From an uncultured virus (IMG/VR IMGVR_UViG_3300035680_001736) (Duplodnaviria; Heunggongvirae; Uroviricota; Caudoviricetes): a DNA stretch of 64,000 bases. The notes under the pieces are model-generated. The model saw nothing but the letters and a program-made list of their open reading frames with translations, was not told the origin of the DNA and made no database searches. Where the stretch lies: the IMG/VR virus record IMGVR_UViG_3300035680_001736; one strand, written 5' to 3'. Of this stretch, positions 2,958 to 54,200 are shown one piece after another (the stretch's first letter is position 1; each line of letters opens with the position of its first letter). Position numbers and translations under genes: made by a program.

Positions 2958-5900
2958 TTACTGAGCAACAAGTACTGTCCAGTTTTTAGGAGTACCTGTC
3001 AAAGTATTTCTACAACCTATTCCAATGGCTGATGGAGCTGAATTAACCGCGTCTCCAGTGCCATTTGAATTATCCAAGTATAATGTACCACCTACCACAG
3101 TAGTTGCGGATAAATTACATAGTATAAAGTCTACCGCAGTCTGTGTTAATTTACTATATCTTAATTCAATATTTTTAATATTAGGACAAGTAGGTAATAA
3201 AGGTATATTCCAATTACTAAAAGGATAAGAACCACCTACCGTTGCTACTACACCCGGACCAAAAATATTATTCATAGTCAACGCAGTAAGTCCTGGTGGT
3301 AGTGGAGTTAGATTTGAGGGTCCAGATGTAAAAATATTATTACTGATGTCTAAAGATTTTAATGTTGCGGATACTGAATTAAAATTAATAAACCCTGTAA
3401 AACTTTTTAAAGTAACACCACTTGAAAGGTAAGTCTGTTGGGAAATGTCTAATGAAACAATTCCAGGGAACAAACTTAAATCTAAGGTGGTAATGCGATT
3501 TCTATTATTAGCGGCGCCCGCAAAATCTACAGTTCTGATAGTATTTGGGAACTGTGTGGTCCACGAAGTTAACAAATTCGCATTTATTGTAAACGCCGAA
3601 ATTTGAGTTGTAGTTAGTGTGGATGAAAAAGTAGTTATACTATTTCTTTTCGCCACGTTGTTTTGACCCAAATCTAGTACTCTCAGGTTTGTTGGGAGTG
3701 GAAATGAGAAATTTCCTGAAAAATTGTTAGCCCCTAAATCTAAGGTTCTAACCGAATTAGGTAACGTTGGTAATGTAGAAATGTTATTTGTAGAAGCATC
3801 AATAGTTATCAAAGATGAACATGAGGATATTGATGAAGGTATACTTGGGATAACTTGATTATTACTGATATCTAATGTAGTTAAACTAGTCGCATTTGAA
3901 AAATTTGGAGTAAAATTACTAATTCTATTTCTCAAATCAGAGCTTGAAGTACTGTTATTATTCAAATTAATTATTTGAACATTTTGAGGGATGATTTCAC
4001 TAAAAGCGGATAGTCTATTATCAGTAATAGTGATTCCAGTTAAAGAGGTATATGTCAAGTTTAAGTTAAATGACATATTTTGTAGTGGTAATATTGATGT
4101 ATAATTCTTGTTAATTAGAATATTTTTTATAGTTGTTGGGAATGTAACATTTATTGAAGATAAGCTTCCTCCTCCAGAGGTTCCAAGACTTCCTAACACC
4201 TCGAACCATTCCAAAACAGTGTTGGAAAAATCCCAATTTATATTTTGTACGGAGGTTACAATGAAATAAATTTGTTTTAATCCGTTACCAATCGAGACAG
4301 GGTTAAAATTAAACACTCCCTGTACTAATTCGAACCTAATACTTTCAATACTATTAGGGAACGTTATTGGTATTTCATTTAATGTTGAAGCCGATATTGT
4401 TACAAATCTCAAAGAAGGGTAGTTTGTACTTGTGAATGTATTTAAAGGAATTATTTCACTTATTCTTTGTAATGTTATTGTGATTAACTGGCCTAGAGGA
4501 GCCGGTGGATTAAAGTTGCTAACTGTTGCGGTAAATGTACCCGGTCCATAAGTATTTGTCAATGTAGTATTGCTCGAAGCTCCTAAATTAAAATTTTGTA
4601 ATGGTAAGGCGTTACCCCAATCAACGGTACCATTCAATGCTCCCGTATTGTTACTACCTAATACAATATTCATCGGATTAACACCATCTCTATTTTTAAC
4701 TTGTAATTTCAAAACTTCAGGTACAAAAGTTTTTGTTGGTGTTTGAGTCTTTGTTTTAGTTGGGGTGTTAGTCGGAGTTTGAGTTGGTGATGTTGTAGGG
4801 TCAGGTGTTTTTGGGGGTGTTGATGTATTTGTTGGGGTTTTTGTTGGGGTTTTTGTTGGGGTTTCGGTAGGACTAGTTGTTGGGTCAGGGGTTGCTCCTA
4901 TGGTTTTGGTCGGAGTTGGGGTTTTAGTTTTAGTAGGGGTTATTGATGGTGTTTGAGTTTTAGTTGGTGTTTGAGTTGGAGTTTTAGTCGGTGTTTCAGT
5001 AGGACTAGTTGTTGGGTCAGGGCTTGACCCTGGGGTTTTAGTTTTTGTTGGGGTTGGTGTTGTGGTTTTAGTTTTTGTTGGGGTTGGTGTTTGAGAAGAA
5101 TCAGGAGCTTGGGATGTTTTAGTAGGTGTATTTGTTGCAAAATTTGTTTGTGAAGGAGTTGTAGTTGGTGCCGTTAATCCTGGTGTTTTAGTTTTGGTAG
5201 GGGTTCTTGTGTTAGTAGATGTATTTGTTGGTGTTTGTGTATTTGTTGGTGTTTGACTTGGGGGTAGTCCAGGAGTTGGTGTGGGGGTTTGAGTTCTTGT
5301 ATTTGTTGGAGTAACAGATGGAGTTCTTGTTTGTGTTGGGGTTTGAGTTCTTGTTGGTGTTGGTGTTTGTCTACTAGGTGTTCTGGTTCTTGTTGGGGTT
5401 GGTGTAGGTTCTACACCTGTTGGAGTTGGGGTTGGGCAATCAAAAATACTAGACGCTCCTCGTATATAATAAAAAGGACTTGATTCAATTTCAACTACAA
5501 AAGTAATTCCAAAGGGAGGAGTCTGTCTTATTTCATAAAGTTCTTGGGGACATTGATAACAAGATTGGAATGTAAAATATATTTTTCCGTACCACTCAAA
5601 CATACCTCCAGTATCCGCACCTGGAGCGTTTGTTAAAATTGTAAAATTGAAAGTATAACTCTGATTATATGGAGGAATGTTTTCAAAAACATATACTTCG
5701 GCAAAATAACTAAAGTTTCCGCCAGTCTGAACTCCTGCCATTACGAATATTTGTCCAAAAGATGAAACAACAATATCACCGGCATTACTTAAAGTTACAG
5801 ACGGTAATGCTCTCAAATCAATTATTATGATTTGGTCTTGAGTCATATCAAATATTGATAATCTATCATTTGATTGAAAAATTAATTGGGAACCCATTAA

Positions 5901-8900
5901 TTGTTGGTCATTACCAAAGTAGGCTAAAGATACCCCTAAATAATTAATACTGGTGGTAGGATAACCGTCAGGACCCAAAGTAGGGTTTTCTATTAAATAT
6001 GGTATAAATCTACTGAATGATAGAGTAAATGGTTGCCAATTAGTTATATCATATTCGTAAATTCCAGGGTAGTTAGTCGGAATAGACTGCCAGTTAGGTT
6101 GTGATGATACATTTGAAAAATTACTTTTCAAATACCACAATTTAGTTCTACTATGAGCAATGTCATCATATACTGAATAGGGAGGAAACGGAAAGCCAGT
6201 TCCTGCTATATATACGTATGAATTAATTGAGATATCATAATACATGATATTTTGGTAATATGTTTGTGACCCATTTGGACCAGTAACCCTTCTTTCAACG
6301 GACATCAATATGGATTGACATGGTAAAAATGTTTTTATGGGGGTTTTTGTTGGAGTAGTTGTTGGAAAAAATGATGTTTTTGTGGGGGTTATAGATTGGG
6401 TTGGGGGTGGGGTGTTAGTTGGAAATGTGCAACTACAATTATAAAAACTTAAAATACTGGCAGTACCGCTAACTAATGTTGCACTTTGAAAACACCCGTC
6501 AATATATTGTCCTGCGGATAACTGAAAATTTATAGGAAAAGTATCTTGACAAAGCAATATAGAAACAGTTCCTCCTTGAAATGTTGAGATTTCAAATCTA
6601 CTACAACATTTTGTTGGAGTTATAGTAGTTGTTGGTGTGGGGGTTATAGGCCCTTGTACTGTTTGTGTTGGGCTAGATGAAACTACGGGTGTTTGTGTCG
6701 GAGAATTAGTTACAAATGGAGTCTTAGTATTGGTAGGAGTCTTAGTATTGGTAGGAGTATTAGTTGGAGTTTTAGTCTGTGAAGATGTTGGGTCCGGTGA
6801 TAAAAATGGTGTTTTAGTCATTGAAGGAGTCCGAGTAATTGTTGGGGTTTTTGTCGGAGTATTAGTCATTGTTGGAGTTGGGGTAAGTGTTTCACAAGGA
6901 TTTAATCTGACGCAGTCATCAGCACAAGACCTATACACATAACCAACAGGACACGTATAACCACTTGGTAAGTCAATGCCCCCAAGAGTTTGGACCACAG
7001 TTGCTTCAGAAAAACCAGAAGTCGTAAAGATAATATTCAAATCATTTATAGAAGTGGCTCCTGTTAATTCTTGGATTGTGTTATCATAAATTTCACATCC
7101 AAATACCGCAGCATTTCCATCGTTTGCCCCCAAAACCGTAATAACATGATTTCCTGGTGATATATAGACAGGATATACGTGCCAATAAATGAATGATAAA
7201 TTTTGTAAAGGAGGATTTGCCGGAGTGTATGTACCAAAATAAGAATTTACTATTTCAGTACCATCTAAAGATATTCTATAATAATTGTCTCCAGCAATAC
7301 CCACCCAATATACTTTTCCAACTGTTATACCCGTAAAACAAGTCGAAAATCCTAACCATGTGTCTATTGGGAATCCAAAACCTGATGGTGCCCATATACC
7401 ACTTCGATTTAAAGGTCCTTGTTCTTGTCCGATAACCGTAATGGTATTCTTCCAAACGTTAGGAGTTTGAGAAGCTGCAAAGTTAGTTCCATTTCCTCCA
7501 AAATTATATCCATTTATGTAGAATATAGAACCTTGGTTTGAATATACACTGTTCCTAAATCTTGTTAGTGGTATTATAGTCTGAGGAGGTGTTACTGGTA
7601 CAGTTATGACTTGGTCGGCGCAAGGTATTGATGTCGGAGTTGGAGTCGCACACGGATGATTTTCTAAACACTGTTCACATTCAGTCTGATTATTAATACT
7701 AGGCGTTATTGATGGTGTTTGTGTCGGTGATGAAGTTGGGTCAGGACTTAAAAATGGTGTTTTAGTAACTGTTGGAGTTTTGGTGTTAGACGGTGTAACA
7801 GTCGGTGTTTTTGTTTTAGATGGGGTTATTGTTTTGGTTGGTGTATTAGTTGGTGTATTTGATGGGGTTGGTGGAGGGGTTGGGTCTACTGGAGGGCCAG
7901 AACAGGTAATACAGTCAAAATCATCATTTATAAAATCAATAATTCTTTGTCTTGGTATTGGACCAAAACCTAGCGCAAAACTAACTGGCGCTGCTCCGTT
8001 AGTATCGCAATAACTCATAATAGTTCCAAAACTTGGAACTGGGGGCACTCCACAACACCAATTTGGAGGGACACAGTTTAATCCGGCACATGAAGGAAAA
8101 GCGCTACAAAAACTAATGTTAGATAACGGTCTTCCATATCCTATTCCTCCTACACCATCAGGACACTCCAAATTTTGACCATTATTACAACCATCCAACA
8201 TTTGACAACCGAATGTGTCAGAACCAGGAGTCCAATTTGTTACATTCCAATAACAACCCTTAGTGTGAGGTGAGCCGAATACGTGACCTTGTTCGTGTGT
8301 TACAACTTTAACTGTACGACTATAAGAAACAGAACTTGGGGTTGCACCTGAATCACCAATCCTCATTTGTGTGTAAGAAAATCTACCGGTCTTTCCAGAA
8401 AGTGGTCCACTTGAAGGACCAAAAATACCTTGTCCACACATACTACCAATACTATTGGCAACTCCTCCACCGCTATTTGTAAGTCCAAAAGATAAATACA
8501 TTGCGGTATCTTCAACAATATTATTCTGTTGGACTCTATAATTAGTATAATTTAAAAGACTTTGTGTGGTGCTACTATTAAAAAGCCCTGATGGTCCTGA
8601 AGTAAAGAAATTTAAAGTTTGTAAATAAATTTGAATCCCTTCGTTTAAATATAATTGTTGAGTTGCATTGAATAGTGAGGTAATCCAGGACTGAGCTTGA
8701 GGTAATCCACCGAAGGTTTGTATTGCATTAAACTCAACATCCCACCTAACATTAATGCATTTTGTTGTTGATGTTAAACTATAACCTTGTTTGATTTTTC
8801 TATCAATAGACCTGTAATTTTCAGTATTATTAGGCATGTTAGATGGGTCAACACCGCATTCCCAAGGGTCAATTAAATTCTCGTGTTTGGTTAGAATAAA

Positions 8901-9254
8901 CGAACCATCTTCGTTTTTATCAAAACCATATTGAACAAAATCATCCTCAACTATGCCGTATATACCAAATTCACTGAATGATACGGCAACGAATGAACTG
9001 GCAGAACCTTCAACTTTACCCCCATAGTGTACACTATTGTCAATGTAAGATGAAATATTTTCATCAGTAGTGAATCTTAAATTAGATTTACTTAAATCAT
9101 TTCTATTTAATATAAGTTGTTTTTCAACACCTGATAATGGTACAGTCAACATAATTTGACTGTGTTTCATAGTCATTAATTCACTAAAAACATCATCATC
9201 TAATTGAAACTTTCCGTTGATGTTAAAACTCTTATGTAAACTTAATGACTTCAT
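2958..9254 (-). CDS. Reprolysin/M12-like zinc metalloprotease fused to TP-rich linkers, a PA14-like module, a propeller and C-terminal leucine-rich repeats
   Basis: [11 protein letters not shown] (8265-8297), Met-turn GTIMSY, prodomain Cys (WECGV); LxxLDxSxNxI repeats at the C-terminus. Confidence 0.85.
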
Positions 9255-9267
9255 ATTTTATATATAA

Positions 9268-12200
9268 TTATTGTGGTGTTATATTAATATACTCGAAAGA
9301 AAAATTTGCAGTGTTTAAATTCTCATTATATACCGCGCAATTTGAAAACCCGACAGCCTCCACAAAGTATGACTGACCGTTTACCAATGTATTAGCGACT
9401 TGAAAAGGGATTAGATATATTCTGATTGTATCAAATGGCTCACAACAACTTACAAAAAATTTACTGATAGCACAAGGGTGTAAATTAACACACTGAGCAC
9501 AACCTATATTAGTTGGTTGTGGTGTTGGTGTGATAGTGGGAGTTTGTGTTGGAGTTAAACTTGGTCCTCCAGGGATTAAATTAACTGTAGAGTTTAAATA
9601 AGTGTTTGACGCCCCGCTATAAAAATCGAATATAAGTGTATTCGTTTGAGTTAAATCATATGGAGGAGTTAGACCTACACTATATAATTCAGATGGTGAT
9701 GAATTTGTTAAAAAATATAAATTACCATTATCCTCAAAAAGGTATCTTTCTGCTAAAACATCACCTAAAATTTTAGTTATCTCAGGTCCTGCGGATAAAT
9801 TTGTAAAATCATATTGGTATATGTATTTATCTCTAAAATTAAAATCAACAACTATTACAAGTAATTTACCTGTAGTCGTTAAGACATAATCACCGAATGT
9901 CCTGAAACCAAACGGAAATTCTAATATAGTTGTAAACGTCGGGGTTGGTGAAGAAATATTTATCTGAACGATTCCATTGGGTATTGTGTTAGTATCAGTC
10001 GAGGTTAGAATAGTGGTATTGTTTATTGCAAACAAACCTGGATACTCACCAATTGGGTCGGGTAGTTCTACAAATTTTACAAATGTTAAACTAAATGGAT
10101 TAATAGTGTAATTCCATTCACCAATTGCACAAATTAAATTAGGGTCGTCGAAATCTATACCAACATACCCCTTAACAAAAATTTTGGAACTCGTATGGGT
10201 TATATCGTTGGATTCAAAAAATGGGGTTCCTGTAAAAGTTAAAGTACCAAAAAAAGTTTGGTTATTTGTAGATACTTGATACGTGTAAATGTCTAAACCA
10301 TAAAGTAATAAAACGCCCAAAGAAGGGACCACCGGAGTTTTAGTTCTAGTAGGTGTTGGGGTTGGGCTATTACATATACATCCAGGATATCTTATGTAAG
10401 TGCCTAAACCAGATATTTTAGAAACATTATTAGCACAATTTAAATCTTGGAAGGTTCCTGTTGGTACATTTATATTTTGTATGGTACCGTCACACAAAAC
10501 TACTAAAAAAGTAGTTCCACTTGTATCTGAAGGACTTGAGTCTAGCCTAAAACTACTACAACATGTTGGTGATGGGACACAAAATTTAAACGAAGTTCCA
10601 GCTCCATTCCAAAATTGGGAACCTCCGTTACCTTGAATTGTTAATCTTGTGTAACTTTGGGAATTATTAATTGTAATTTTACCTGTACCGGTGTTAAGAT
10701 TAGGCGAGCTCCATGTACTTCCGGAGCCGGCCACTAACACATTACCGTTTATTGTAGTTAGACACGTATATGTGGGTACAATTGATGGGGTACCTGTATT
10801 TGTGGTAAATGTAAATGTTTCAGTTAATGATGGGACACCAGAATTACCGGCACCCGCATATAGAATCTGAACATTATTTACGGGTACATCAAAATCAATA
10901 TTATAAGTAAATGGACCACTAACATTTATATTAGAATTCCAACCTAAGTTAGCGACCGTATCGGGGGCTAAAAAAGTTGGATTTGATTGACAATAACTTG
11001 AGGTACCTGTTGCGGTAATAATTGTTACGTTTTGGTCCCAAGAATGGGTTAAGGTTATTCCATTTAATATCCAAGATGCTCCGTTTCCAAAAGCAACTGA
11101 CGTTGGTTCTGTACATACATTATTTGGTATTCTCGTTGGTGTTGGAGTTTGAGTAGTTGTTGGTGTTAATGACGGTATTAGATTAGAAGTTTGTGTACGT
11201 GTCCGTGTAGGAGTTGGTGTTGATGTTACTGTACTTGTACGTGTACGTGTAGGGGTTGGTGTGACAAATCCAATGGTTGGTGTTTTAGTGGGTGTCTGAG
11301 TTCTTGTTGGGGTTGGTGTTGGTGTAACATTATCACATATGATAAAACACGGTTCAGGTAATAGAGTGTTTATATCAAAACAAACTTCACAGTTTAATGG
11401 AAATTCGAATGAAAGTCCAATTTTACCTGAGGTAAATAATGAGTTTGGCATAAAATTCCCAACTCCCCCATTTTGTTCCAATTCATTTATAAACACAGTA
11501 TCTGAAACCATTCCATCCCAAACCCACATTCTTGGATAAACCGTATTTAAATTTACAACTTGAATAGAATTTCCGGTTACTGTAAAAGTGAAATCGATAT
11601 CTCTTTGTATGGTTGGGCAAAGACAAGTTAGTTCATTAATAAAATTGACTATTCTCTGTTGTGGTTGGGGACCAAATCCATTTGCAAAATTTATACCTAC
11701 CGCAATTTGATGACAATAGGACATGATTGTACCTCCGTTTACAGGAAAACCATTGTCTATACATAATGGAAAGCTTCCATTAACACTGCAAAAAGAATAA
11801 GTGTTGTTTTCGAATCTACAACTGTCAATTCTTTCACAACCTATAGGTTCAGCGCCAGGAGTCCAATTAGTAACATTCCAATAACAACCAAAAGTATGTG
11901 GAGAATCAAACGCATGACCTTGTTCGTGTGTCACAACATTAACATTCCATGTATAAACTGTGGAACTTGGATTAGTTGTAATTTGACTCTGAAACAATTG
12001 ACTGAACACAACTGGAGAGTCAGCACTTCCAGTAGTGGTAGAGGTCGAAAATGGGTTACATAAAGTACCAAGACCGTCTGAGACACCTCCCGCTCCAAGT
12101 CCAGGTAATATAGGATATGATATAGCCAAAAGGTGTTTTAAATCACCTTGAAATTGCCAAGATTGTGCTCCTGGAGGTATATTACCGTCACCCCAATATT

Positions 12201-12966
12201 TTCTATAATTTCTAATTATTCCACCCAATCCACTGGCAGATGAGCCAGGTGTAACGGTTGAATAATAATTTATGTATGGTGAGGCAAATGAATCCCATCC
12301 ATATAAGGTAGATAAAACAACTTGTATACCATCGTTGGCAAAAAGAGTTGCCGATGCATTAAATAAAGCAAAAATTCTACACCAAGTACTTGTCCCGTAA
12401 GCTTGGAATATGTCATATTCTATCTCCCAATCTAATCTAACTAATTTTGTAGAGACTTCAGTAATATATGGGTTAATTGTTTTGGAGTTGATTTGTTTTT
12501 GTAAATCTTGTTTTTTTGTGTTTTTTCTAGACGTTTGTTTTTGTTTGGGTATTTCAGATTCATGTGATGTACCGCAGTTAAAGTCAGGTTGACCTTCTAC
12601 TAAGTCTGTTGAAAAAATTAGGTCACCGTGATGGTTAATATCAAATGTACCATCTTGTGAAACAATATGTCCATGAATTTGGTCATTGAAAAAACTAATA
12701 GACACTATAGAATTTTCGTCATCTACTAATTTACCTCTATAATGGGTACCCAAATCAACCCCGCAAACATCCCCACTTGATGATAACAGATTAAAATTAT
12801 CTGAAAAAATATTGGCCTTAGTAAGATTAATATCTTTAGTAACATTTCTTAAAGGTAAAGAAATAGTTACGTTTTTTTCATTCGAAAGTGATAGACTTCT
12901 AAGTTGAGTTCTATCAATCTCAAATGTGTTATTTAAATTTATATTTTTTAAAAGAGTATATTGCAT
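9268..12966 (-). CDS. Second reprolysin/M12-like metalloprotease with TP linkers and a propeller module
   Basis: HEQGHAFDSPH (11896-11928), GTIMSYC, prodomain FNCGT; shares [11 protein letters not shown] with the 2958..9254 gene. Confidence 0.85.
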   Translation of the reverse strand: MQYTLLKNINLNNTFEIDRTQLRSLSLSNEKNVTISLPLRNVTKDINLTKANIFSDNFNLLSSSGDVCGVDLGTHYRGKLVDDENSIVSISFFNDQIHGHIVSQDGTFDINHHGDLIFSTDLVEGQPDFNCGTSHESEIPKQKQTSRKNTKKQDLQKQINSKTINPYITEVSTKLVRLDWEIEYDIFQAYGTSTWCRIFALFNASATLFANDGIQVVLSTLYGWDSFASPYINYYSTVTPGSSASGLGGIIRNYRKYWGDGNIPPGAQSWQFQGDLKHLLAISYPILPGLGAGGVSDGLGTLCNPFSTSTTTGSADSPVVFSQLFQSQITTNPSSTVYTWNVNVVTHEQGHAFDSPHTFGCYWNVTNWTPGAEPIGCERIDSCRFENNTYSFCSVNGSFPLCIDNGFPVNGGTIMSYCHQIAVGINFANGFGPQPQQRIVNFINELTCLCPTIQRDIDFTFTVTGNSIQVVNLNTVYPRMWVWDGMVSDTVFINELEQNGGVGNFMPNSLFTSGKIGLSFEFPLNCEVCFDINTLLPEPCFIICDNVTPTPTPTRTQTPTKTPTIGFVTPTPTRTRTSTVTSTPTPTRTRTQTSNLIPSLTPTTTQTPTPTRIPNNVCTEPTSVAFGNGASWILNGITLTHSWDQNVTIITATGTSSYCQSNPTFLAPDTVANLGWNSNINVSGPFTYNIDFDVPVNNVQILYAGAGNSGVPSLTETFTFTTNTGTPSIVPTYTCLTTINGNVLVAGSGSTWSSPNLNTGTGKITINNSQSYTRLTIQGNGGSQFWNGAGTSFKFCVPSPTCCSSFRLDSSPSDTSGTTFLVVLCDGTIQNINVPTGTFQDLNCANNVSKISGLGTYIRYPGCICNSPTPTPTRTKTPVVPSLGVLLLYGLDIYTYQVSTNNQTFFGTLTFTGTPFFESNDITHTSSKIFVKGYVGIDFDDPNLICAIGEWNYTINPFSLTFVKFVELPDPIGEYPGLFAINNTTILTSTDTNTIPNGIVQINISSPTPTFTTILEFPFGFRTFGDYVLTTTGKLLVIVVDFNFRDKYIYQYDFTNLSAGPEITKILGDVLAERYLFEDNGNLYFLTNSSPSELYSVGLTPPYDLTQTNTLIFDFYSGASNTYLNSTVNLIPGGPSLTPTQTPTITPTPQPTNIGCAQCVNLHPCAISKFFVSCCEPFDTIRIYLIPFQVANTLVNGQSYFVEAVGFSNCAVYNENLNTANFSFEYINITPQ

Positions 12967-12973
12967 TTATATT

Positions 12974-15900
12974 TTAGGGGGTTTGAATGCTTATATAATC
13001 ATAATAGTAATTTACTGTTGATAAAAATGGAGAGTAGGTCGCACATCCTGAGAAACCTACCGCTTCTATGTAATAAGTAGTGTCAGAAACTAAACTTGAT
13101 AGAACATTCTGAGGTACATTGTACAATGAGAATATTCTATATGGGTCACAACACTCTATGAATGGTGTAAATGGTTCAGGTATAATTGTCGGAGTCGGTG
13201 TTTGTGTTACAGAAGGAGTGATGGTGATTTGTATTGGTGAGAAGAATGAGGTTACACATGAAGCCAACTGTGAAGTTCCTTTAGTATCTCTACCTAAGGC
13301 AACTGTTGATGATGTGTTGAATGGTGGGGTTAATTGTACGTTATAAATTATACCTGTAGATGTTCCATTTATTAAATAAATTCCGCCATTATTAACATAT
13401 AATCCATCAGGACTATCGATGTTAACAATAAATTCAAGTTCCTTACCTGTTGTTAAATAATTATATTGTTCAACATATTGGTTTATTCCGTCGGTTGTTG
13501 TTACAATTAGTTTATTATTTGTTGTCAACATAAAGTCACCCGTAACAATTCTTCCTTGAGTTAAATTGAATTGGAATGTTGATGTTGCATTAATATTAGT
13601 TATGTCGAGCTCAACAATTTGATTAGGAGTAGTGGTTGGGTTTGTTGCAATTAATGTTGTGTCATTTTTAGCGAATAAACCAAATCCTAATGGGTGTGGT
13701 GATGTAATCTGTCTATTATAAGTGGCCAAGAATGGAGATAAACTAATATTCCACTCCTCGATAATATTGTTAGAGTCCATTCTAGATAACCACAACTTAT
13801 TACTAGTATGGGCAATATCGTTAGCCAACATAGTATTTGGTACATTCAACTGAGATGTTTGATTATTTGTTGGATTGTAAGCGTAAACATCTTGACCGCT
13901 AACATAAAGAACTACACAATCTTGTAATGCAGGTCCAAGTCCTTGAGAAGGTGTAGGTGTTTTAGTTTGTGTAATACTTGGTGTAATTGTTTTTGTTGGA
14001 GTATTTGTTGGGGTTTTGGTTTTTGTTGGAGTATTTGTTGGGGTATTTGTTGGGGTTTTGGTTTTTGTTGGGGTTTCAGTTCTTGTTTGTGTTGGAGTTT
14101 GAGTTGGTTCAGGTGATGCAAATGGTGTTTTTGTGTTTGTAGGTGTTTTTGTGTTTGTAGGTGTAATGGTCGGAGTAACGGTATTTGAAGGAGTTTGAGT
14201 ATTTGTTGGTGTATTTGTTTGTGTATTTGTTGGAGTGATTGTTGATGTTCTACTTTGAGTAGGACTATTAGTTTGAGTTTTAGTTGGAGTTTGTGTTGCG
14301 GTATTTGTTGAAGTAATTGTCGATGTTGGAGTTTTGGTTCTTGTTGGTGTTGGAGTTTTGGTTGAGGTTGGTGTAACTGTTGGAGTTGGGGTTTTAGTTT
14401 TTGTTGGTGTCTTAGTTGGTGTTGTAGTTTTAGTTGGTGTCGTAGTTGGTGTTGTAGTTTTAGTTGGCGTTTTAGAAGGAGTTTGAGTTTGTGTCTCAGA
14501 CGGAGTAAAGGTTGGTGTTTTTGTTTTTGTTGGTGTAATTGTGGGAGTTTGTGTTGGTGTTTTTGTTTGAGTTTGGGTTGGAGTTTGTGTAGGACAAACA
14601 GAAATGGTTGCACATTCTGTACAATCTGTTTGAGCGGTAAACCCTTGATATGAGTATGAAAAGTCGTAGGACGTAAGTGCGGTGAGGTAAGTACCACAAC
14701 CTGAAAACCCTGTACTCTCAATGTAGTAAACTTGATTATCAGTAAGTCCTGTTTTAATTGATAATGGTACTGTAAATATTTGGTAATTATAATACGGGAT
14801 ACAACAACCACTAAAGTATATTATTTCTGGTGGGTAATAAGTTTGTGAAGGAGTAACTGTAGGTGTTTTAGTTGAAGTTTTCGTTGGGGTATTTGTCGGT
14901 GTTTTTGTTTTAGTAACTGTAGGTGTTTTAGTTGGAGTTTTTGTAACCGTGTTAGTGGGTGTCTCTGTTTTGGTAACTGTAGGTGTTTTAGTTGGAGTTT
15001 TTGTGGCCGTGTTAGTTGGTGTTTCAGTTCTAGTGACTGTAGGTGTTGGAGTATTACTTGAAGTTGATGTTTTGGTCGGTGTTGGTGTTTTGGATGCGGT
15101 TCTAGTCGGATTTGGTGTTTTAGTATTTGATGGAGTTTGTGTATTTGTTGCGGTATTTGTTTTCGTAACTGTTGGTGTTTTAGTTGGGGTCTTAGTAGAT
15201 GTGTTTGAAGGTGTATTTGTGGGAGTTTGACTTGGAGACTTAGTAACTGTACTAATAGGTGTTTTACTTTTAGTTGGGGTTTTGGTTAGGGTAGGTGTTT
15301 TTGTATTTGTGGGAGTTTGACTTGGAGATTTAGTAACTGTACTAATAGGCGTTTTACTCTTAGTTGGTGTTTTAGTTGGGGTTGGCGTTTTAGTATTAGT
15401 AGGAGTTTCTGTTTTCGTAATTGATGGTGTTGGAGAATTACTTTTTGTGATTGTTGGGGTTCTTGTAGGGGTGTTAGTTGGTTCTATAGTAGGCTCAATA
15501 ATAGGACAATTAGTAGGTGTTGGAGTTGAGGTTTCGGCTGGAGTAGGAGTTATAGTAGAAGTTGGGCTAACGGTAGGTCTTGGTGTTTTAGTATTTGATG
15601 GAGTTATAGTTATTGTTGCCGTAACTGATGGTGTTACTAATTGATAAGTAACTCCAGTAATTTCACACTCAGGTAATAAACAATCAGGACAATCAGGGTT
15701 AAACATATTAAACCTATCCTTCAGTAACTTGAAATTGTGTTTTACTTCAGGTGCCGATAACGGCTCAACATACATTCTGAATTGGGATATACCTCCATCA
15801 AAAGTACCGGCAAAATATTTTTCTAATAAAATATTAGTCTGAAGACCCTCAAATGTGGTCCCAACAAAATCGTTAGTTGGTAAATTTTCAGGGTCTTGTT

Positions 15901-16168
15901 TGTACGTTCCATCTAATATATAAGTCTTAGGACCTGGAGTTGGTTCGATATAAACAGGAAACGGATTTGATGAAGGTATTGTAAAGTTACAAGTATATTG
16001 GTCTGATGTAAAAATAAGTTCGTATGTACCAAAATAATAATCAGTTACATAATTATATGGTATAATTTGTTGACCTACATTTATAGTTCCACCCGTTTCA
16101 GGGTAAAATACTATATTTGCTGTTTGACCACTATAATTATTACTACCAATTTTAACAGTTGCCGGCAT
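12974..16168 (-). CDS. Mucin-like TP-rich mosaic protein (LamG C-terminal fragment, 6-Cys modules, DIAH propeller)
   Basis: Very long (T/S)PT(K/N/Q/R)T tracts; FDGGISQFRMYVEPLSAPEVKHNF; NDIAHTSNKLW. Confidence 0.8.
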   Translation of the reverse strand: MPATVKIGSNNYSGQTANIVFYPETGGTINVGQQIIPYNYVTDYYFGTYELIFTSDQYTCNFTIPSSNPFPVYIEPTPGPKTYILDGTYKQDPENLPTNDFVGTTFEGLQTNILLEKYFAGTFDGGISQFRMYVEPLSAPEVKHNFKLLKDRFNMFNPDCPDCLLPECEITGVTYQLVTPSVTATITITPSNTKTPRPTVSPTSTITPTPAETSTPTPTNCPIIEPTIEPTNTPTRTPTITKSNSPTPSITKTETPTNTKTPTPTKTPTKSKTPISTVTKSPSQTPTNTKTPTLTKTPTKSKTPISTVTKSPSQTPTNTPSNTSTKTPTKTPTVTKTNTATNTQTPSNTKTPNPTRTASKTPTPTKTSTSSNTPTPTVTRTETPTNTATKTPTKTPTVTKTETPTNTVTKTPTKTPTVTKTKTPTNTPTKTSTKTPTVTPSQTYYPPEIIYFSGCCIPYYNYQIFTVPLSIKTGLTDNQVYYIESTGFSGCGTYLTALTSYDFSYSYQGFTAQTDCTECATISVCPTQTPTQTQTKTPTQTPTITPTKTKTPTFTPSETQTQTPSKTPTKTTTPTTTPTKTTTPTKTPTKTKTPTPTVTPTSTKTPTPTRTKTPTSTITSTNTATQTPTKTQTNSPTQSRTSTITPTNTQTNTPTNTQTPSNTVTPTITPTNTKTPTNTKTPFASPEPTQTPTQTRTETPTKTKTPTNTPTNTPTKTKTPTNTPTKTITPSITQTKTPTPSQGLGPALQDCVVLYVSGQDVYAYNPTNNQTSQLNVPNTMLANDIAHTSNKLWLSRMDSNNIIEEWNISLSPFLATYNRQITSPHPLGFGLFAKNDTTLIATNPTTTPNQIVELDITNINATSTFQFNLTQGRIVTGDFMLTTNNKLIVTTTDGINQYVEQYNYLTTGKELEFIVNIDSPDGLYVNNGGIYLINGTSTGIIYNVQLTPPFNTSSTVALGRDTKGTSQLASCVTSFFSPIQITITPSVTQTPTPTIIPEPFTPFIECCDPYRIFSLYNVPQNVLSSLVSDTTYYIEAVGFSGCATYSPFLSTVNYYYDYISIQTP
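15212..15391. repeat. Near-perfect 90-bp tandem duplication in a TP linker
   Basis: [23 protein letters not shown] encoded twice with few substitutions. Confidence 0.8.
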
Positions 16169-27965: not shown

Positions 27966-27994
27966 TTGATAAAATATAATTTTGGTCGTATACT
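27966..27994 (+). promoter_or_regulatory. Candidate host-RNAP promoter of the glycosylation operon
   Basis: TTGATA-N17-TATACT; also contains TAATTTTG (Bacteroidota -7-like); ATG at 28014. Confidence 0.5.
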
Positions 27995-28013
27995 TTCATT
28001 ATTATTTTTAATT

Positions 28014-29234
28014 ATGAAAGAAAAAATCAAAGTATTAGTTCTCCCATCGGACCGTACCGGCGTCGGAAAATTTCGTTCTCTAGACCCCCATGTCATGTTA
28101 CAAAATCTTTATCCTGATGATTTCCATGTGGATATTGATTATGAACCAAAAATAAATGATGTTAACTATTGGAAACAATACCAAATAGTTCACGCTCACA
28201 GAAGTATTGGACAAAACTATGATATTGTACCTCAACTTATCAAACAACTTAAATCATTAGGTATTGTAGTTGTAGTCGACATTGACGATTATTGGTTACC
28301 CACAAGAGAACACCCGATTCATCAATTAATTGTAAATCATAAATTAAACGAAAAGATTGTTGCAAATTTACGGGAGGCAAGTTATGTCACTACTACTACA
28401 ACAATTTTTGCGGATGAAATTAAGAAAATAAACAAAAATGTCATTATTTTTCCAAACGCTATCGACCCAACCGAACCTCAATTTAAACAACCAACCTTAG
28501 AATCAGAAAGAATTAGAGTTGGTTGGCTCGGAGGTTCATCTCACCTTCATGATTTGTTGTTACTCGATGGAATGGTTGAAAAGAACGGAAAGGAAATCAA
28601 CGATAAAATTCAATATGTGATTTGTGGTTTTGATACTCGTGGTACTATGACGGAAATTAATCCAAAAACAGGAGAAGAAAAACGTAGAGACATACTTCCT
28701 CATGAAACCGTTTGGGTTAGATATGAAGAAATTTTTACAAACAATTATGCAGTTGTTGGTGACGAGTATAAGAAATTTTTGATGGAATTTAAAGATGTTG
28801 AATTCCCAAATGAAACTAGTTTACCATATCGTAGAGTTTGGACAAAACCTGTAACTACATACGCAATGAACTACTCTAAGTTGGATATTTCATTGGCCCC
28901 AATTAAGAACCATATCTTTAACAGAATGAAATCTCAATTGAAGGTTATTGAGGCAGGTTTTTATAAGAAGGCACTTATTGCTTCCGAAATTGGTCCATAC
29001 ACTATTGATTTAAAACATAGTTTAAATAATGGTAACTTTGTTGATGGGAACGCCTTATTAGTTGACGAACACAAAAATCACAGTGATTGGTCAAAATACG
29101 TTAAAAAACTCATTCAAAATCCAAATATGATAACCGATATGGGTGAGCGTCTTTATGAAACTGTTAAAGACACTTATGATTTGAGAAATGTTACAAAAAA
29201 TAGAGCAGAATGGTATAAAACTTTGGTACAATGA
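28014..29234 (+). CDS. GT-B fold glycosyltransferase
   Basis: VVVDIDDYW, RVGWLGGSSH, DISLAP...FN..KSQLKVIEAG..KALIAS; start moved to ATG 28014. Confidence 0.85.
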   Translation: MKEKIKVLVLPSDRTGVGKFRSLDPHVMLQNLYPDDFHVDIDYEPKINDVNYWKQYQIVHAHRSIGQNYDIVPQLIKQLKSLGIVVVVDIDDYWLPTREHPIHQLIVNHKLNEKIVANLREASYVTTTTTIFADEIKKINKNVIIFPNAIDPTEPQFKQPTLESERIRVGWLGGSSHLHDLLLLDGMVEKNGKEINDKIQYVICGFDTRGTMTEINPKTGEEKRRDILPHETVWVRYEEIFTNNYAVVGDEYKKFLMEFKDVEFPNETSLPYRRVWTKPVTTYAMNYSKLDISLAPIKNHIFNRMKSQLKVIEAGFYKKALIASEIGPYTIDLKHSLNNGNFVDGNALLVDEHKNHSDWSKYVKKLIQNPNMITDMGERLYETVKDTYDLRNVTKNRAEWYKTLVQ

Positions 29235-29959
29235 TAAAAATCCCTATCACCAAAATATTATTCATTGATATTGAAACGGTTGGGGGATGTCCTGATTTCA
29301 CTACATGTCAGGCATTAAATCCTAAAGTAGCAACTCAATTTATAAATTACTATGATTGGTTTTTAAAAAGATTTCCTGAAGATGATAATACGGTAAGTAA
29401 TATAGAACAGGAGGAAAAAAAACGAGATAGAATATTCGCAAAAAGAGCTGCTTTAGTTCCCGAATTTGCAAAGATTATTTGTGTTAGTGTTGCGTTTGTT
29501 ACAGATAAAGATGAAACAAAAATGCAAACATTTTCAGGTGACGATGAATTGGAACTATTGAAAGATGTTCAAAAATTATTGGACAGATGTGGTAAATTGG
29601 ATTTTCACTTATGTGGTCATAATCTTAAAAATTTTGATATACCCATGTTAGCGAAACGTATGGTTATCAATGGTCTAATGCCTCCATCAATTCTACCTTC
29701 ATATGACACAAAACCTTGGGAAATTAAAGCAATCGATACTAAAGAGATATGGCAATACGGAGCATATAGTTCAATAGGGTCATTAGATTTACTTTGTTCT
29801 TGTATGGATATACCAACATCAAAGGAAGGTGAAATAACGGGAGATATGGTTCATGATTCATATTGGGTTGATAGAAAGTTAAAAGAAATTAGTGAATATT
29901 GTGAACGTGATGTTCAAGTATTAATTGATATTATAAAAAAATTAAAAGAATTACAATGA
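29231..29959 (+). CDS. PolB-related 3'-5' exonuclease (DEDD/RNase H-like)
   Basis: FIDIET, GHNLKNFDIP, IDT, YCERDV motifs. Confidence 0.85.
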   Translation: MIKIPITKILFIDIETVGGCPDFTTCQALNPKVATQFINYYDWFLKRFPEDDNTVSNIEQEEKKRDRIFAKRAALVPEFAKIICVSVAFVTDKDETKMQTFSGDDELELLKDVQKLLDRCGKLDFHLCGHNLKNFDIPMLAKRMVINGLMPPSILPSYDTKPWEIKAIDTKEIWQYGAYSSIGSLDLLCSCMDIPTSKEGEITGDMVHDSYWVDRKLKEISEYCERDVQVLIDIIKKLKELQ

Positions 29960-31967: not shown

Positions 31968-32023
31968 TTTTTTTATTTACTAAAATAAAAAATTAAATAA
32001 ACTATTGTTATTAACTTAAAAAT

Positions 32024-33276: not shown

Positions 33277-33281
33277 ATACT

Positions 33282-34001: not shown

Positions 34002-34035
34002 AATCAAAACTAAATGAGGAAATTAAAAACAAAAA

Positions 34036-36585: not shown

Positions 36586-36586
36586 T

Positions 36587-37648: not shown

Positions 37649-37657
37649 TTTAAAATT

Positions 37658-51273: not shown

Positions 51274-54200
51274 TTATTTTATTATAACACCCTTTAAATT
51301 TTGATTATTAGGGTCAGTTAATGTATAAATTATCGTAAGTGGTGGTATGGTTGCATTTGTTGGTGTAGGTGTTGGAGTTTTAGTAGGTGTTGGGGTTTTA
51401 GTTGGAGTTTTACTATTGGTTGGAGTTTTAGTTTTGGTAGGTGTTGGGGACGGGAATGGTTTAGGACAATTTACAGTAACACTCCATAACGCCGCTTCTA
51501 TTGGTGAATTAACAATTAACATAGCCGTATTCGTAATTGGAGATGAAACTGTTTTATCAAATGTAACGAACCCGTTACCCGCTCCTTCAACATCAGGATA
51601 TCCTAATGAATTCAGTTGAGAGTTATAAGTTGAACTTCCTCTAAATCCGGTGTCAATTACCGTACTTCCGTTCCAAATAAGTTGATAGCTATCAGGTATA
51701 CTATAAGAGTTATAATTTAACTGAACTACGCCAATACCACTTCCTAATATAATTAAATACTCATGAATTCCTGGTTGAGAATTTACATAAATAGGTTGGT
51801 CACATGCCGAAAAGCCGGTATAAACAATAGGCCTTGTTTTTGTTGGTGTGTTTGTTGGAGTTGGAGTTTTAGTTTTTGTCGGAGTAACAGATGGTAATGG
51901 TCCAGGTTGACAAGGATTTGTTATTGTATAACAATTTGAATTACATGGGTCATAAATATAACCTGTAGGACATGTATATCCGCTTGACAAATATTGTCCA
52001 GATATATTTTGAACGGTGGTTGCACTTGTTTGCCCACTAGAAGAGAATAATATATTCAAGTCAGATACGGTAGTTGCTCCCGTTAATTCATCAATTGTAT
52101 TATTATAAATTTCACATCCAAAAGACGCTATACTTAAATTATCTCTATTTAAACCGTATAATTCTATTACGTGATTTCCAGCACCAAGAGTTACAGGGTA
52201 AACATGCCAATATATAAATGAAATGTTAGTATCGTTATCATACAACCCATCATAAGGTCCATTGATTGTGTTTACAATATCAGTACCATCGACAACAATT
52301 CTAAAATTATTATCCGCTCCCAAACCAATCCAGTATGTTTTTGTTTCAGGTGCATTAACACATACGCTATACCCTAACCAAGTATTAATAGGGAAATTTA
52401 AATCAGTACTCCATTTTCCAGTTCTGTTTAAAGGACCATTAGTATAATTAGCTCTTCTCCATACAACAGGGGTAGTTGAAAGATATAGGTAATCATTATT
52501 AGGACTCGTTCCATTTAAATTAAATGGACTATGGAATACGGTTCCCATCATTGTATAAGTACCATACGTAACTCCTGTTAAATTTACAATTGATTGTGAG
52601 GATGGGGTGGTTGCCGAAGTTATTATTTGTGTGTCAGAACAATTGGTTGGGGTTTGAGTTCTTGTAGGTGTTTGAGTTTTAGTAACAGTTGGTGTTTGAG
52701 TTCTTGTAGGAGTTTGAGTTCTTGTAGGAGTTTGAGTTTTTGTTTTTGTAGGAGTAATTGATTTTGTTGGAGTGTTTGTTGGAGTAATTGATTTTGTTGG
52801 AGTGTTTGTTGGGGTTTGAGTTTGAGTTGGGGTTTTTGTAGGAGTTTGAGTTTTTGTTGGAGTTGGAGTATCCTTAGGGCAATCGGTGAAACAAGAACCT
52901 GAATCACAAGATTGAATAGGTCCATTAATACCATTGAATATGTAATTGTACAACGATGTTCCAGACGTTGAAACTTTTGCACATCCTATAAATCCACTAC
53001 TATTAATCTCCCAAATAGTTCCACCTGTTAAATATTCGAAAACTGAAGGTGGTATTTGGTATAATGCGAATATCTCATTAGATATTGAACTACAACATGG
53101 TTCAAAAATAACCTGTAAATTAGATGTTAAAGTTGGAGTTGCGGTAGGTCTTATTGTTCTAGTTACTGTCTTAGTAACGGTAACCGATGGGGTAACTGAT
53201 GGTGTTCTTGTAGGTGTTTTAGTTTTTGTTGGAGTAACACTAGATGTTTTTGTTGGAGTATTATAAGGTGTTACTGTTTTAGTTGGAGTTGGGGTATTAG
53301 TTGGAGTTATTGTAGGTGTATTTGTTGAAGTTTTTGTTCTAGTTGGGGTATTTGTTCTAGTTGGAGTATTTGTTGGAGTTCTAGATGGGGTTCTTGTAGG
53401 TGTTTGAGTTTTTGTTACAGTTTTTGTTACTGTATTGGTTGGAGTTATTGATGGTGTTTGATTTGGTGTGTTAAATGGGGTTTTTGTGTTTGTAGTCGTT
53501 GAAGTCTTAGTAGGAGTATTTGTAGGGGTTGGTGATTTAGTTTTAGTTTTAGTTGGGGTACCGGTTTTAGTTGGTGTTGGTGAAACATAATTAGAAGTGT
53601 TTGTTCTAGTTACTGTTGGTGTTTTAGTTTTAGTTGGAGTTTTAGTCGGTACATTAGTTGAGGTTGCGGTTGGAGTTGCAGCTGTATACCCATTTGTTTC
53701 AGTAGGGGTTGTAGAAGGCTGTGGTGTTGGTTGTATAAAATTAATAGTAGAACAAGAATATAATGTAAAATAATCAGAAGATATACCATTAAAATTAGAA
53801 GCGGCTGTGCTAATTGTGTAAGGTGGGTTTAAACTAACACTTTTAACCAATTGAACGTACCACTCGGTATTATAATCAACATATGTAAAATACAATTGAC
53901 CACTAAATTCAAAAATTGAAGTTACTGAAATTTCATTATCTGATGAAATATAGATACTTAATTCTGATGAATTGCCGTTAGGGTTAGTATAGTCGTATTG
54001 ATTTATATAGTAAGAATTGTTAAATGTATTTTTTACTAAAACTAAAATTTTATTTGTTGAAGTAATAATAAAATCTATTATTAATAGATTTACCGGTAAC
54101 GTTATTAAATCAGTTGTTAAGCTATTATTTAAAACACCATTTTGGAATGTATATTGTCTAATATAATTGTTTGTTGATATGAAATTAACGCCTTCATAAT

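What the first reader, a model, noticed from the sequence alone, without database searches (positions are those of the whole stretch)
7650..14820. A 6-Cys module is split across three consecutive genes in gene order, suggesting a daisy-chain of giant proteins
Seen: the intact module occurs at 14594-14820 (F..CC...YYIExxGFSGC..Y...Y.Y..FTA-QTDCTECATISVC) and at ~52879-53110. The 12974 gene ends after only the first half (FIECC...GFSGCATY...DYISIQTP*). The next gene (9268) carries an orphan second half CAQCVNLHPC (9472-9501) and then ends with a new first half (FVSCC...GFSNCAVY...YINITPQ*). The gene after that (2958) carries an orphan second half [13 protein letters not shown] (7650-7688). Both orphan second halves keep the CxxCxxxxxC spacing of the 14594 copy, and joining YINITP to QTECEQC recreates YQGFTA-QTDCTEC. 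Each break is followed by a new start and a reprolysin domain. Inference: either protease cassettes were inserted twice at the same point of an ancestral mega-gene, or the halves reassemble in trans (donor-strand/disulfide complementation) and link proteins head-to-tail into a long appendage. Retention of all the Cys suggests selection.
Basis: partly seen in the sequence, partly recalled or inferred. Interest (0 to 1): 0.88.

Follow-up and report, generated by a model that had tools for sequence, protein, structure and literature searches.

The report
Split cysteine module across phage genes
In an uncultured giant T4-like phage, a small disulfide-stapled barrel domain is cut at the same point at two successive gene borders, so neighbouring giant proteins carry open barrels and spare cap helices that may clip the proteins together, though binding is untested.

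Summary
The ~83-aa six-Cys module (CC…GC…CxxCx5C) folds confidently (AF2 pLDDT 90) as a five-stranded barrel closed by a Cys-bearing C-terminal helix.

In the window, P0001 ends in an uncapped barrel. P0002 (metzincin head) ends in cap + 8 residues + uncapped barrel. P0003 (metzincin head) has a lone cap between Pro/Thr linkers. A complete 321-kb relative has the same grammar with one more middle gene (3 uncapped barrels, 3 spare caps), and a third lineage shows at least two breaks.

- All 8 P0001-type relatives and all 11 middle-type proteins stop at the same point. No unsplit form was found.
- All 18 aligned uncapped barrels form one clade, which suggests a single ancient split spread by unit duplication, not two insertions.
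- In intact modules Cys1 and Cys4 are lost only together (4 of 50), which suggests a barrel-to-cap disulfide. Uncapped barrels keep Cys1 (18 of 18).

My best reading is that caps dock in trans onto the preceding protein's barrel (about 0.4). Rivals are cis capping or a barrel that stands alone. The complex predictor was unavailable, so binding is untested.

The parts
12974..16168 (-). P0001, 1064 aa. First protein of the run: small N-terminal domain, Pro/Thr linkers, one intact module, a propeller-like domain, and a C-terminal uncapped barrel.
   Evidence: Orthologues P0007, P0008, P0015, P0019 and the L042 ORF have the same architecture.
14588..14842 (-). Intact six-Cys module of P0001 (aa 443-527): barrel plus cap helix. 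The cap CTECATISVC is at 14594-14623.
   Evidence: AF2 pLDDT 90, strands 6-12, 19-25, 38-44, 46-53, 61-71, helix 74-80.
12977..13180 (-). Class-a uncapped barrel: the C-terminal 68 aa of P0001, ending right after strand 5, with no cap anywhere downstream in the protein.
   Evidence: All three Cys are invariant in 8 of 8 rows of A5.
12967..12973 (-). 7-nt gap between the P0001 stop (TAA) and the P0002 ATG. It is out of frame and shows no Shine-Dalgarno-like motif.
9268..12966 (-). P0002, 1232 aa. Middle protein: metzincin head, linkers and other modules, then cap + barrel at the C-terminus.
11896..11928 (-). Zinc motif HEQGHAFDSPH of P0002 (aa 347-357). The Met-turn GTIMSY is at aa 412.
   Evidence: Pfam Reprolysin_5 24.1 bits, below the 27-bit cut-off
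9472..9501 (-). Cap motif CAQCVNLHPC of P0002 (aa 1156-1165), preceded by a Pro/Thr linker and followed after 8 residues by the CC of its own barrel.
   Evidence: C, C, P, C are invariant and L, H at least 90% conserved in 10 rows of A3.
9271..9471 (-). Class-b uncapped barrel: the C-terminal 67 aa of P0002.
9255..9267 (-). 13-nt gap between the P0002 stop and the P0003 ATG.
2958..9254 (-). P0003, 2098 aa. Last protein of the run: metzincin head, linker, lone cap, a ~230-aa Cys domain without a Pfam match, a second type of CC module, a propeller-like domain, a long linker and C-terminal leucine-rich repeats.
8265..8297 (-). Zinc motif [11 protein letters not shown] of P0003 (aa 320-330). The Met-turn is at aa 410.
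   Evidence: Pfam Reprolysin_5 41.6 bits, above the cut-off
7650..7688 (-). Lone cap [13 protein letters not shown] of P0003 (aa 523-535), with Pro/Thr linker on both sides.
   Evidence: The counterparts CKNCTDQHPC in P0018 and CSNCTDQYPC in P0108 keep C..C...[HY]PC while the other residues differ.
52873..53127 (-). Second intact module in the window (P0005 aa 2052-2136). It is not part of the split run.

Best explanation
Setting. The window is a fragment of an uncultured T4-like jumbo phage.

The module. It is a small extracellular-type domain: a five-stranded barrel whose C-terminal helix carries CxxCx5C and is probably tied to the barrel by at least one disulfide (Cys1 of the CC pair to the first Cys of the helix).

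Evolution (inferred from the tree and the anatomy).
- Once in this lineage, a gene border (stop, then a few bases, then the start of a metzincin-headed gene) came to lie exactly between barrel and helix.
- The unit [barrel-stop | protease head - linkers - cap] was then duplicated.
- The result is a run of genes: X-barrel* | head-...-cap-barrel* | (more of these) | head-cap-Y.

Mechanism (inferred, not shown).
- The cap helix of each protease-headed protein docks onto the open barrel at the C-terminus of the protein encoded just upstream.
- The joint is locked by disulfide once the proteins meet oxidising conditions outside the cell.
- Because cap and barrel in the middle proteins have exactly the spacing seen between two covalently tandem modules, docking would rebuild a tandem module array.
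- P0001, P0002 and P0003 would then be joined into one branched, protease-bearing assembly, probably a fibre or other virion appendage.
For: Anatomy.
- AF2 on a 50-row alignment gives a confident fold in which all strands lie before the break and the cap is a helix at residues 74-80.

Conservation of the split.
- The stop lies at the same module position in 8 of 8 P0001-type proteins and 11 of 11 middle-type proteins.
- I saw no unsplit form of this clade among the full-length matches in the fetched proteins of the 87 profile hits.
- The lone cap keeps C..C...[HY]PC in 3 of 3 last-type proteins while neighbouring residues change.
- The cap in middle proteins is better conserved than caps of intact modules.

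Genome-wide grammar.
- The complete relative G001 has 3 uncapped barrels and 3 spare caps, all in four consecutive genes.
- Protease heads occur only in these genes: 3 in G001 and 2 in the window's record.
- Heads have been swapped between tail types in the two lineages, yet the grammar is kept.

Disulfide logic.
- In 50 intact modules, Cys1 and Cys4 are present together in 46 and absent together in 4, never singly.
- The uncapped barrels keep Cys1 in 18 of 18, although class-a barrels have no cap in cis.

Tandem-junction spacing.
- Covalent tandem modules (P0022, P0036) have the last cap Cys, 8 residues, then CC. That is the same spacing as in all 10 middle-type rows.

Expression and cis test.
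- Gaps of 5-16 nt suggest co-expression.
- AF2 did not pack the middle protein's cap onto its own barrel: residues 1-13 have pLDDT below 50.
Against: - No binding test of any kind was possible.
- The barrel holds all its strands, so it may fold and function uncapped.
- 9 of 50 intact modules carry a seventh Cys, so an odd Cys count is tolerated in this family.
- The 4 modules that lack Cys1 and Cys4 are close relatives, so they may reflect one event.
- The balance of barrels and caps would arise automatically from duplication or loss of whole units and needs no selection.
- In the middle proteins the cap sits next to its own barrel, so cis capping (circular permutation) is geometrically possible. 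The low-confidence AF2 run rests on only 10 sequences.
- The lone cap of P0003 precedes a domain that in other proteins (P0022, P0042, P0114) has its own N-terminal CxxC...C extension, so it may serve that domain in cis.
- Only three lineages with gene context were found.
- That these are virion proteins is assumed, not shown.
Confidence: 0.4

Rival explanations
1. Mixed cis and trans. The middle proteins are circular permutants whose cap folds back on their own barrel. Only the first protein's barrel and the last protein's lone cap are true split partners. P0001 and P0003 are then joined, and P0002-type proteins stay free.
For: - The cap is always exactly 8 residues before its own barrel's CC (10 of 10 rows). 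A cap meant for another protein would not need that adjacency.
- If Cys4 pairs with Cys1, a helix-turn-strand hairpin of this length could bring them together (inference from the secondary structure).
- One bare barrel and one lone cap are left over in each of the two genomes.
Against: - AF2 left the cap of the permuted segment unstructured: pLDDT about 29 over the first 10 residues, mean 58.5. The alignment was shallow.
- The same 8-residue spacing occurs at junctions of covalent tandem modules, where the cap belongs to the upstream barrel.
Confidence: 0.2
2. No docking at all. The split is an evolutionary scar. The barrel is a self-sufficient C-terminal domain, for example an anchor or binding domain. 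The cap in middle proteins is a leftover of a tandem junction or a cis element. The lone cap of P0003 is an N-terminal Cys element of the following domain.
For: - All five strands are in the barrel.
- Modules with an odd Cys count exist (9 of 50).
- Helical Cys caps of similar pattern also end other domain types here, for example [14 protein letters not shown] in P0003 and TNCAQCISETEC in a G001 protein.
- Relatives of the domain after the lone cap carry their own CxxC...C N-extension.
- The barrel/cap balance follows from unit duplication alone.
Against: - A leftover would decay, yet the spare caps keep all three Cys plus [HY]P in 13 of 13 proteins across lineages with 30-45% identical heads.
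- Class-a barrels keep Cys1, although in intact modules Cys1 disappears whenever its partner Cys4 does.
- The stop is fixed at the same residue position in all 19 proteins.
Confidence: 0.3
3. The three genes are really read as one protein, by read-through, frameshift or an assembly error.
For: The module pieces follow each other in gene order.
Against: - Each border has a stop and a full new gene start with a ~450-aa protease head between barrel and cap.
- The gaps are 7, 13, 5, 16 and 11 nt, with no constant frame relation.
- The same borders are present in independent assemblies from four collections.
Confidence: 0.02

Closest known systems
T4 long tail fibre, gp34-gp35-gp36-gp37 (recalled from textbook knowledge, not from a call)
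   Same: Both are in a T4-like phage (Gp23-type capsid protein in the window's record and in G001). In both, consecutive genes would give proteins that join end to end in gene order into one long appendage.
   Different: - No sequence relation to the T4 fibre proteins was seen (no Pfam or PHROG fibre family).
- The proposed joint here is a split globular Cys module, not trimeric fibre ends.
- The partners carry protease heads.
- Attachment to the particle is not shown.
Donor-strand complementation of chaperone-usher pili (recalled)
   Same: An incomplete fold at the end of one subunit is completed by a short segment of the next, giving head-to-tail chains.
   Different: Here the missing element is a C-terminal helix, not a beta strand. 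The barrel is complete in strands. A disulfide lock is proposed. No chaperone or usher is present.
Cohesin-dockerin assembly of cellulosomes (recalled)
   Same: In both, enzyme heads are joined through Pro/Thr-rich linkers to a short docking element that plugs into a small beta domain on another modular protein. Middle proteins with both elements resemble adaptor scaffoldins.
   Different: No dockerin or cohesin family match. The docking pair here derives from one split domain. A disulfide is proposed rather than a calcium-dependent contact.
OB-fold domains with a C-terminal helix (Stn1, Ten1, RPA32/RPA14, SSB, PriB)
   Same: The best structural matches of the intact-module model are OB folds: 6lbu_A Z 4.9, rmsd 3.0 over 66 residues, and 8oej_B Z 4.6. 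In several of them the alignment spans the whole model, helix included.
   Different: Z is below 5, identity is 3-10%, and Foldseek finds nothing at E <= 0.001. This shows only a common arrangement, not membership. Those proteins have no disulfides.
Bacteroidota secreted reprolysin-like (M12) metallopeptidases with type-IX secretion C-terminal domains
   Same: The protease heads hit Reprolysin_5/2/3. Their nearest full-length database relatives (25-27% identity) carry PF13688 with PF18962. The zinc motif and Met-turn are intact.
   Different: The phage proteins have no secretion C-terminal domain and no evident signal peptide. They are fused through Pro/Thr linkers to phage modules and to the cap element.

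Membership tests
Six-Cys barrel-plus-cap module (unnamed family defined here by profile A2/A4) | Full-length match to the profile, with CC, GC and a C-terminal CxxCx(2-9)C | tested here: met
   P0001 aa 444-527 (E 7.9e-39) and P0005 aa 2052-2136 (E 1.5e-29) match profile positions 1-83. 42 of 50 aligned modules have all six Cys in register.
Six-Cys barrel-plus-cap module (unnamed family defined here by profile A2/A4) | The same features in the C-terminal copies of P0001 and P0002 | tested here: not met
   The matches stop at profile positions 68-69 of 83, at the protein's last residue. The cap is absent downstream.
Metzincin / reprolysin-like M12 peptidase (heads of P0002 and P0003) | Zinc motif HExxHxxGxxH | tested here: met
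   [11 protein letters not shown] in P0003. P0002 has HEQGHAFDSPH, with D in place of G.
Metzincin / reprolysin-like M12 peptidase (heads of P0002 and P0003) | Met-turn downstream of the zinc motif | tested here: met
   GTIMSY in P0002, P0003, P0016, P0017 and P0018. That this is the Met-turn is my reading of the motif.
Metzincin / reprolysin-like M12 peptidase (heads of P0002 and P0003) | Pfam score above the gathering cut-off | tested here: inconclusive
   P0003 scores 41.6 bits against a cut-off of 27. P0002 scores 24.1 bits, below it.
Metzincin / reprolysin-like M12 peptidase (heads of P0002 and P0003) | Latency prodomain (cysteine switch) and proteolytic activity | not tested
   About 170-300 residues precede the catalytic motif, but no prodomain family matched.
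Donor-strand complementation joints | The incomplete subunit lacks a beta strand, which the next subunit supplies | tested here: not met
   In the AF2 model all five strands precede the break. The missing piece is the helix at residues 74-80.
OB fold | Five-stranded closed barrel with clear structural similarity to solved OB folds | tested here: inconclusive
   Best Z 4.9, none at 5 or above. The top rows are OB proteins. No Foldseek match at E <= 0.001.
Circularly permuted module (C-terminus of P0002) | The upstream cap packs on the protein's own barrel | tested here: inconclusive
   AF2 mean pLDDT 58.5, with cap residues 1-13 below 50, from a 10-row alignment.
Split domain reassembled in trans | Physical binding, or a disulfide, between the barrel of one protein and the cap of another | not testable with these tools
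Cohesin-dockerin | Sequence match to dockerin or cohesin families | tested here: not met
   No such Pfam family among the hits of P0001-P0006.

The most novel reading that the evidence does not exclude
The open barrel and the ~13-residue Cys helix form a natural, genetically portable plug-and-socket pair that locks by disulfide. It would be a phage counterpart of cohesin-dockerin or of engineered tag/catcher pairs. With it, a T4-like jumbo phage would build a branched fibre from separately made giant proteins and hang zinc proteases on it. The number of middle units (cap + barrel) would set how many proteases are mounted.
Probability: 0.3. Interest if true: 0.8.

Novelty: new variant of a known kind. 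Interest (0 to 1): 0.6.

Why it matters
If the caps really dock in trans, three things follow.
- This would be a new kind of joint between phage appendage proteins: one small domain split at a gene border, with the fold and a disulfide restored between two polypeptides.
- It would explain how modular giant proteins of uncultured jumbo phages are put together and how enzymes are mounted on them.
- It would offer a compact natural protein-ligation pair, an ~70-aa socket with an ~13-aa plug.

Even if no docking occurs, two results stand. The module is a widespread family with no Pfam or PHROG match (full-length matches in more than 50 proteins fetched from the 87 profile hits, some of which are spurious repeat proteins). 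The locus is also a clean example of gene fission inside a domain that has been stably inherited and duplicated.

Tried and rejected
- **Complex prediction** (P0001 barrel alignment A5 with lone-cap alignment A6) was not available, so there is no verdict on binding.
- **IMG/VR scans.** A scan with whole P0002 found nothing. Scans with A1, A3 and A5 found only the same three near-identical contigs. L040 is an unrelated baseplate and giant-fibre locus.
Whether bacteria carry the module was therefore not tested.
- **INPHARED phages.** No DNA match at megablast level and no tblastn match of the P0002 C-terminus.
- **P0003 head search.** The head (aa 1-470) found only distant (25-27%) bacterial-type reprolysin proteins among proteins of similar length.
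- **Fold searches.** Foldseek against the PDB gave no match at E <= 0.001. A weak row for the metallopeptidase inhibitor potempin A (E 4.1, TM 0.31) was judged noise.
- **Read-through or frameshift** across the borders was rejected, because the gaps and frames vary.
- **Zinc binding by the CxxCxxxHPC cap** was considered. Intact-module caps lack the His, so I did not pursue it.
- **Model coordinates** are not given to the script machine, so Cys-Cys distances and the disulfide map could not be read from the AF2 model.
- **Literature.** Three full-text searches found no description of this module or of a split-domain joint of this kind. These three searches are the only basis for saying that I did not find it in print.

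Full report
**What the window is**

Places 237-64000 of the window lie on a 107,982-base IMG/VR virus record, rated 37% complete.
- The record has a T4-type major capsid gene (Pfam Gp23, E 1.8e-64).
- The window carries PhoH, dUTPase, an exonuclease, an endonuclease VII-like gene and a sugar-modification cluster.
- No phage in the INPHARED collection matches at the DNA level.
- The finding lies in a run of minus-strand genes for giant proteins made of small modules joined by Pro/Thr-rich linkers: P0001 (12974-16168), P0002 (9268-12966), P0003 (2958-9254) and P0004 (1-2889, cut by the record's end).

**The observation**

All the sequence statements hold.
- P0001 has an intact module at aa 443-527 (CC ... 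GFSGC ... CTECATISVC). It ends with a second copy that stops right before the CxxCx5C part.
- P0002 has CAQCVNLHPC after a linker, then 8 residues, then a further copy that again stops at the same point.
- P0003 has [13 protein letters not shown] between two linkers.
- P0005 holds another intact copy, with a different cap spacing.
- P0002 and P0003 start 7 and 13 nt after the preceding stop.
- Both open with a metzincin head: HEQGHxxxxPH and GTIMSY. The Reprolysin_5 match is over the Pfam cut-off for P0003 and just under it for P0002.
- CxxCx5C occurs 3 times in the three proteins, against 0.03 expected from shuffles.

**What the module is**

A profile of seven intact copies (A2) was run against 1.84 billion representative proteins. 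It found 87 proteins at E <= 0.001.
- Some of these are multi-stretch partial matches to unrelated repeat proteins.
- Re-scanning the fetched proteins gave full-length modules in more than 50 proteins, nearly all flanked by Pro/Thr linkers.
- Neither Pfam nor PHROGs names the module.

AlphaFold2 on a 50-row alignment (A4) gave mean pLDDT 90.0 and pTM 0.77.
- Strands lie at residues 6-12, 19-25, 38-44, 46-53 and 61-71. A short helix lies at 27-30 and a C-terminal helix at 74-80.
- The CC pair sits at 13-14, the GC Cys at 49, and the cap Cys at 74, 77 and 83.

Fold searches were weak.
- Foldseek found nothing at E <= 0.001 in the PDB.
- The wide VIA search gave best Z 4.9, with no match at 5 or above. 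The top rows are OB folds such as Stn1, Ten1, RPA, SSB and PriB.
- This shows only a common arrangement.

**Cysteine logic**

In the 50 aligned intact modules:
- 42 have all six Cys in register;
- 4 have the fifth Cys shifted by alignment;
- 4 lack both the first Cys of CC and the first Cys of the cap;
- none lacks only one of those two.

This points to a disulfide between the barrel's first Cys and the cap. The 4 are close relatives, so this may be a single event. Nine of 50 have a seventh Cys, so odd counts are tolerated. The full disulfide map could not be read, because model coordinates are not handed to scripts.

**Relatives and gene context**

Orthologues of P0001 from other collections (P0007, P0008, P0019, P0028, P0033) end at the same residue position.

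IMG/VR holds three near-identical relatives. One is a complete 321,403-base genome with terminal repeats, G001. The run there has four genes:
- P0015: intact module ... uncapped barrel.
- P0016: head, linker, cap + barrel.
- P0017: head, linker, other module, cap + barrel.
- P0018: head, linker, lone cap CKNCTDQHPC, long body.

A motif scan of the whole of G001 found exactly three uncapped C-terminal barrels and three caps without an upstream barrel, all in these genes. It also found intact modules and unrelated Cys clusters elsewhere.

A JGI contig (L042) shows a third variant with at least two breaks.

Database proteins with both ends present add further middle-type proteins (P0027, P0029, P0034, P0039). 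Their middles vary, but the head and the cap-8-residues-barrel tail are constant. A third last-type protein is P0108, with lone cap CSNCTDQYPC.

Totals are 8 bare barrels (class a) and 11 cap + barrel tails (class b), with no exception and no unsplit form seen.

Protease heads occur only in the run: 2 in the window's record and 3 in G001. Heads and tails have been exchanged between lineages:
- the head of P0002 is closest to that of P0018 (43%);
- the head of P0003 is closest to those of P0017 and P0029 (41% and 40%).

**Origin**

A tree was built on the barrel part only, from 68 rows and 64 columns with the quick method.
- All 18 uncapped barrels fall in one clade (SH-aLRT 96).
- That clade sits next to the intact modules of the P0001-type proteins (SH-aLRT 90 for the joint clade).
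- Class a is a well-supported long branch (SH-aLRT 100).

This fits one split followed by duplication of a unit [barrel-stop | head-linkers-cap]. It does not fit two insertions at the same point.

Covalent tandem modules without a linker exist elsewhere (P0022, P0036). They have the last cap Cys, 8 residues, then CC, which is the spacing of every class-b tail. The run therefore looks like a tandem array h1-h2-h1-h2 read with the gene borders shifted by one element: h1 | h2-h1 | h2.

**How it most likely works**

*Shown:* the anatomy, its conservation, the single origin, and the confinement of heads, open barrels and spare caps to one tight gene run.

*Inferred:* the cap of each protease-headed protein docks on the open barrel of the protein encoded upstream and is locked by disulfide outside the cell. 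This would rebuild a tandem module pair and tie P0001, P0002 and P0003 into one branched assembly with two protease arms.

The arguments for docking are:
- the conservation of the spare caps, with all Cys plus [HY]P in 13 of 13, stronger than in intact modules;
- the retention of the first Cys in 18 of 18 open barrels, although it is lost whenever its partner is lost in intact modules;
- the tandem-junction spacing;
- the failure of AF2 to pack the P0002 cap on its own barrel (10 rows, pLDDT 58.5, so this is weak evidence).

I put trans docking of some kind at about 0.45-0.5 and the full head-to-tail chain at about 0.4.

**Rivals**

1. The middle proteins are circular permutants capped in cis, and only P0001 and P0003 pair (0.2). 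The strict adjacency of cap and own barrel favours this.
2. There is no docking (0.3).
   - The barrel stands alone.
   - The lone cap of P0003 serves the next domain, whose relatives often carry their own N-terminal CxxC...C piece.
   - Similar Cys caps end other domain types.
   - The barrel/cap balance is a by-product of unit duplication.
3. Read-through is excluded by the variable gaps and frames and by the 450-aa heads in between.

**Comparison with what is known**

By function, the proposal resembles three systems, all recalled from general knowledge:
- the end-to-end joining of the T4 long tail fibre proteins encoded by consecutive genes;
- donor-strand complementation in pili;
- cohesin-dockerin mounting of enzymes on scaffolds.

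It is a member of none of them. The missing element is a helix, not a strand. No dockerin, cohesin or fibre family matches.

The heads belong with reprolysin-like M12 peptidases of Bacteroidota-type proteins. The AT-rich gene starts without a Shine-Dalgarno-like motif fit such a host, but that is an inference.

It agrees with the context found here. Other notes (e1-5983114, e1-6056255) propose split 'plug-and-socket' joints in other phage fibres. These are unchecked AI notes and do not count as support.

Three full-text searches found no description of this module or joint. From I saw only the listing and the start of the abstract of PMC12002296 (cyanopodophage A4), and I did not read it.

**Verdict**

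The evolutionary reading is refined: one split, with the unit then duplicated. The structural reading is corrected: a barrel plus a cap helix, not two halves and not a donor strand. The functional claim of a daisy chain remains a reasonable but untested hypothesis. I rate it a new variant of a known kind, with interest 0.6.

Noticed in passing
window 27966-39210 (+): A sugar-modification cluster lies near the genes for the Thr/Pro-rich giant proteins. It holds several glycosyltransferases, two FkbM-type methyltransferases and a GDP-mannose 4,6-dehydratase. It may glycosylate their linkers.
   Followed up: no
window 9268-12966 and 2958-9254; L008 15095-23289: A second type of six-Cys module (CCS.F ... 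C ... C ... C.C, about 65 aa) recurs in P0002, P0003, P0017, P0018 and many database relatives. It has no Pfam match.
   Followed up: no
window 6894-6926 and P0005 near its C-terminus; G001 152630-155188: Other domain types also end in a Cys cap before the next linker, such as [14 protein letters not shown] and TNCAQCISETEC. A stapled C-terminal cap may be a general building rule of these modules.
   Followed up: partly
window 12974-16168 and 1-2889: P0001 and P0004 share a ~65-aa N-terminal domain (..SNNYSGQTANIVFYPETGG..PY.Y..). It also occurs inside P0029 and P0030 and at the start of P0070. Its function is unknown.
   Followed up: no
window 2958-4400 (C-terminal third of P0003): P0003 has C-terminal leucine-rich repeats (Pfam LRR_4, E 1.8e-4, below the cut-off). 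This is a possible binding tip of the last protein of the run.
   Followed up: no
window 9268-12966 against L008 17125-23289; window 2958-9254 against L008 15095-17113: Protease heads have swapped tails between the two lineages. The head of the window's middle protein is closest to the head of the relative's last protein, and vice versa.
   Followed up: yes
window 13912-14811 (-) and antisense frames of all linker regions: Long spurious ORFs, rich in Cys, Trp or Ser, appear in other frames of the Pro/Thr-linker coding DNA. They can mislead ORF lists and motif scans.
   Followed up: partly
window 1-236: These bases lie off the end of the virus record that holds the rest of the window, so P0004 is cut by the record's end.
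   Followed up: no
protein P0053 (database, 120 aa): A short protein ends in an uncapped barrel of a different subtype (FVDCCDSS..GFNGC..YEYISLVKQTIKI). It may be an independent loss of the cap or a gene-calling artefact.
   Followed up: no
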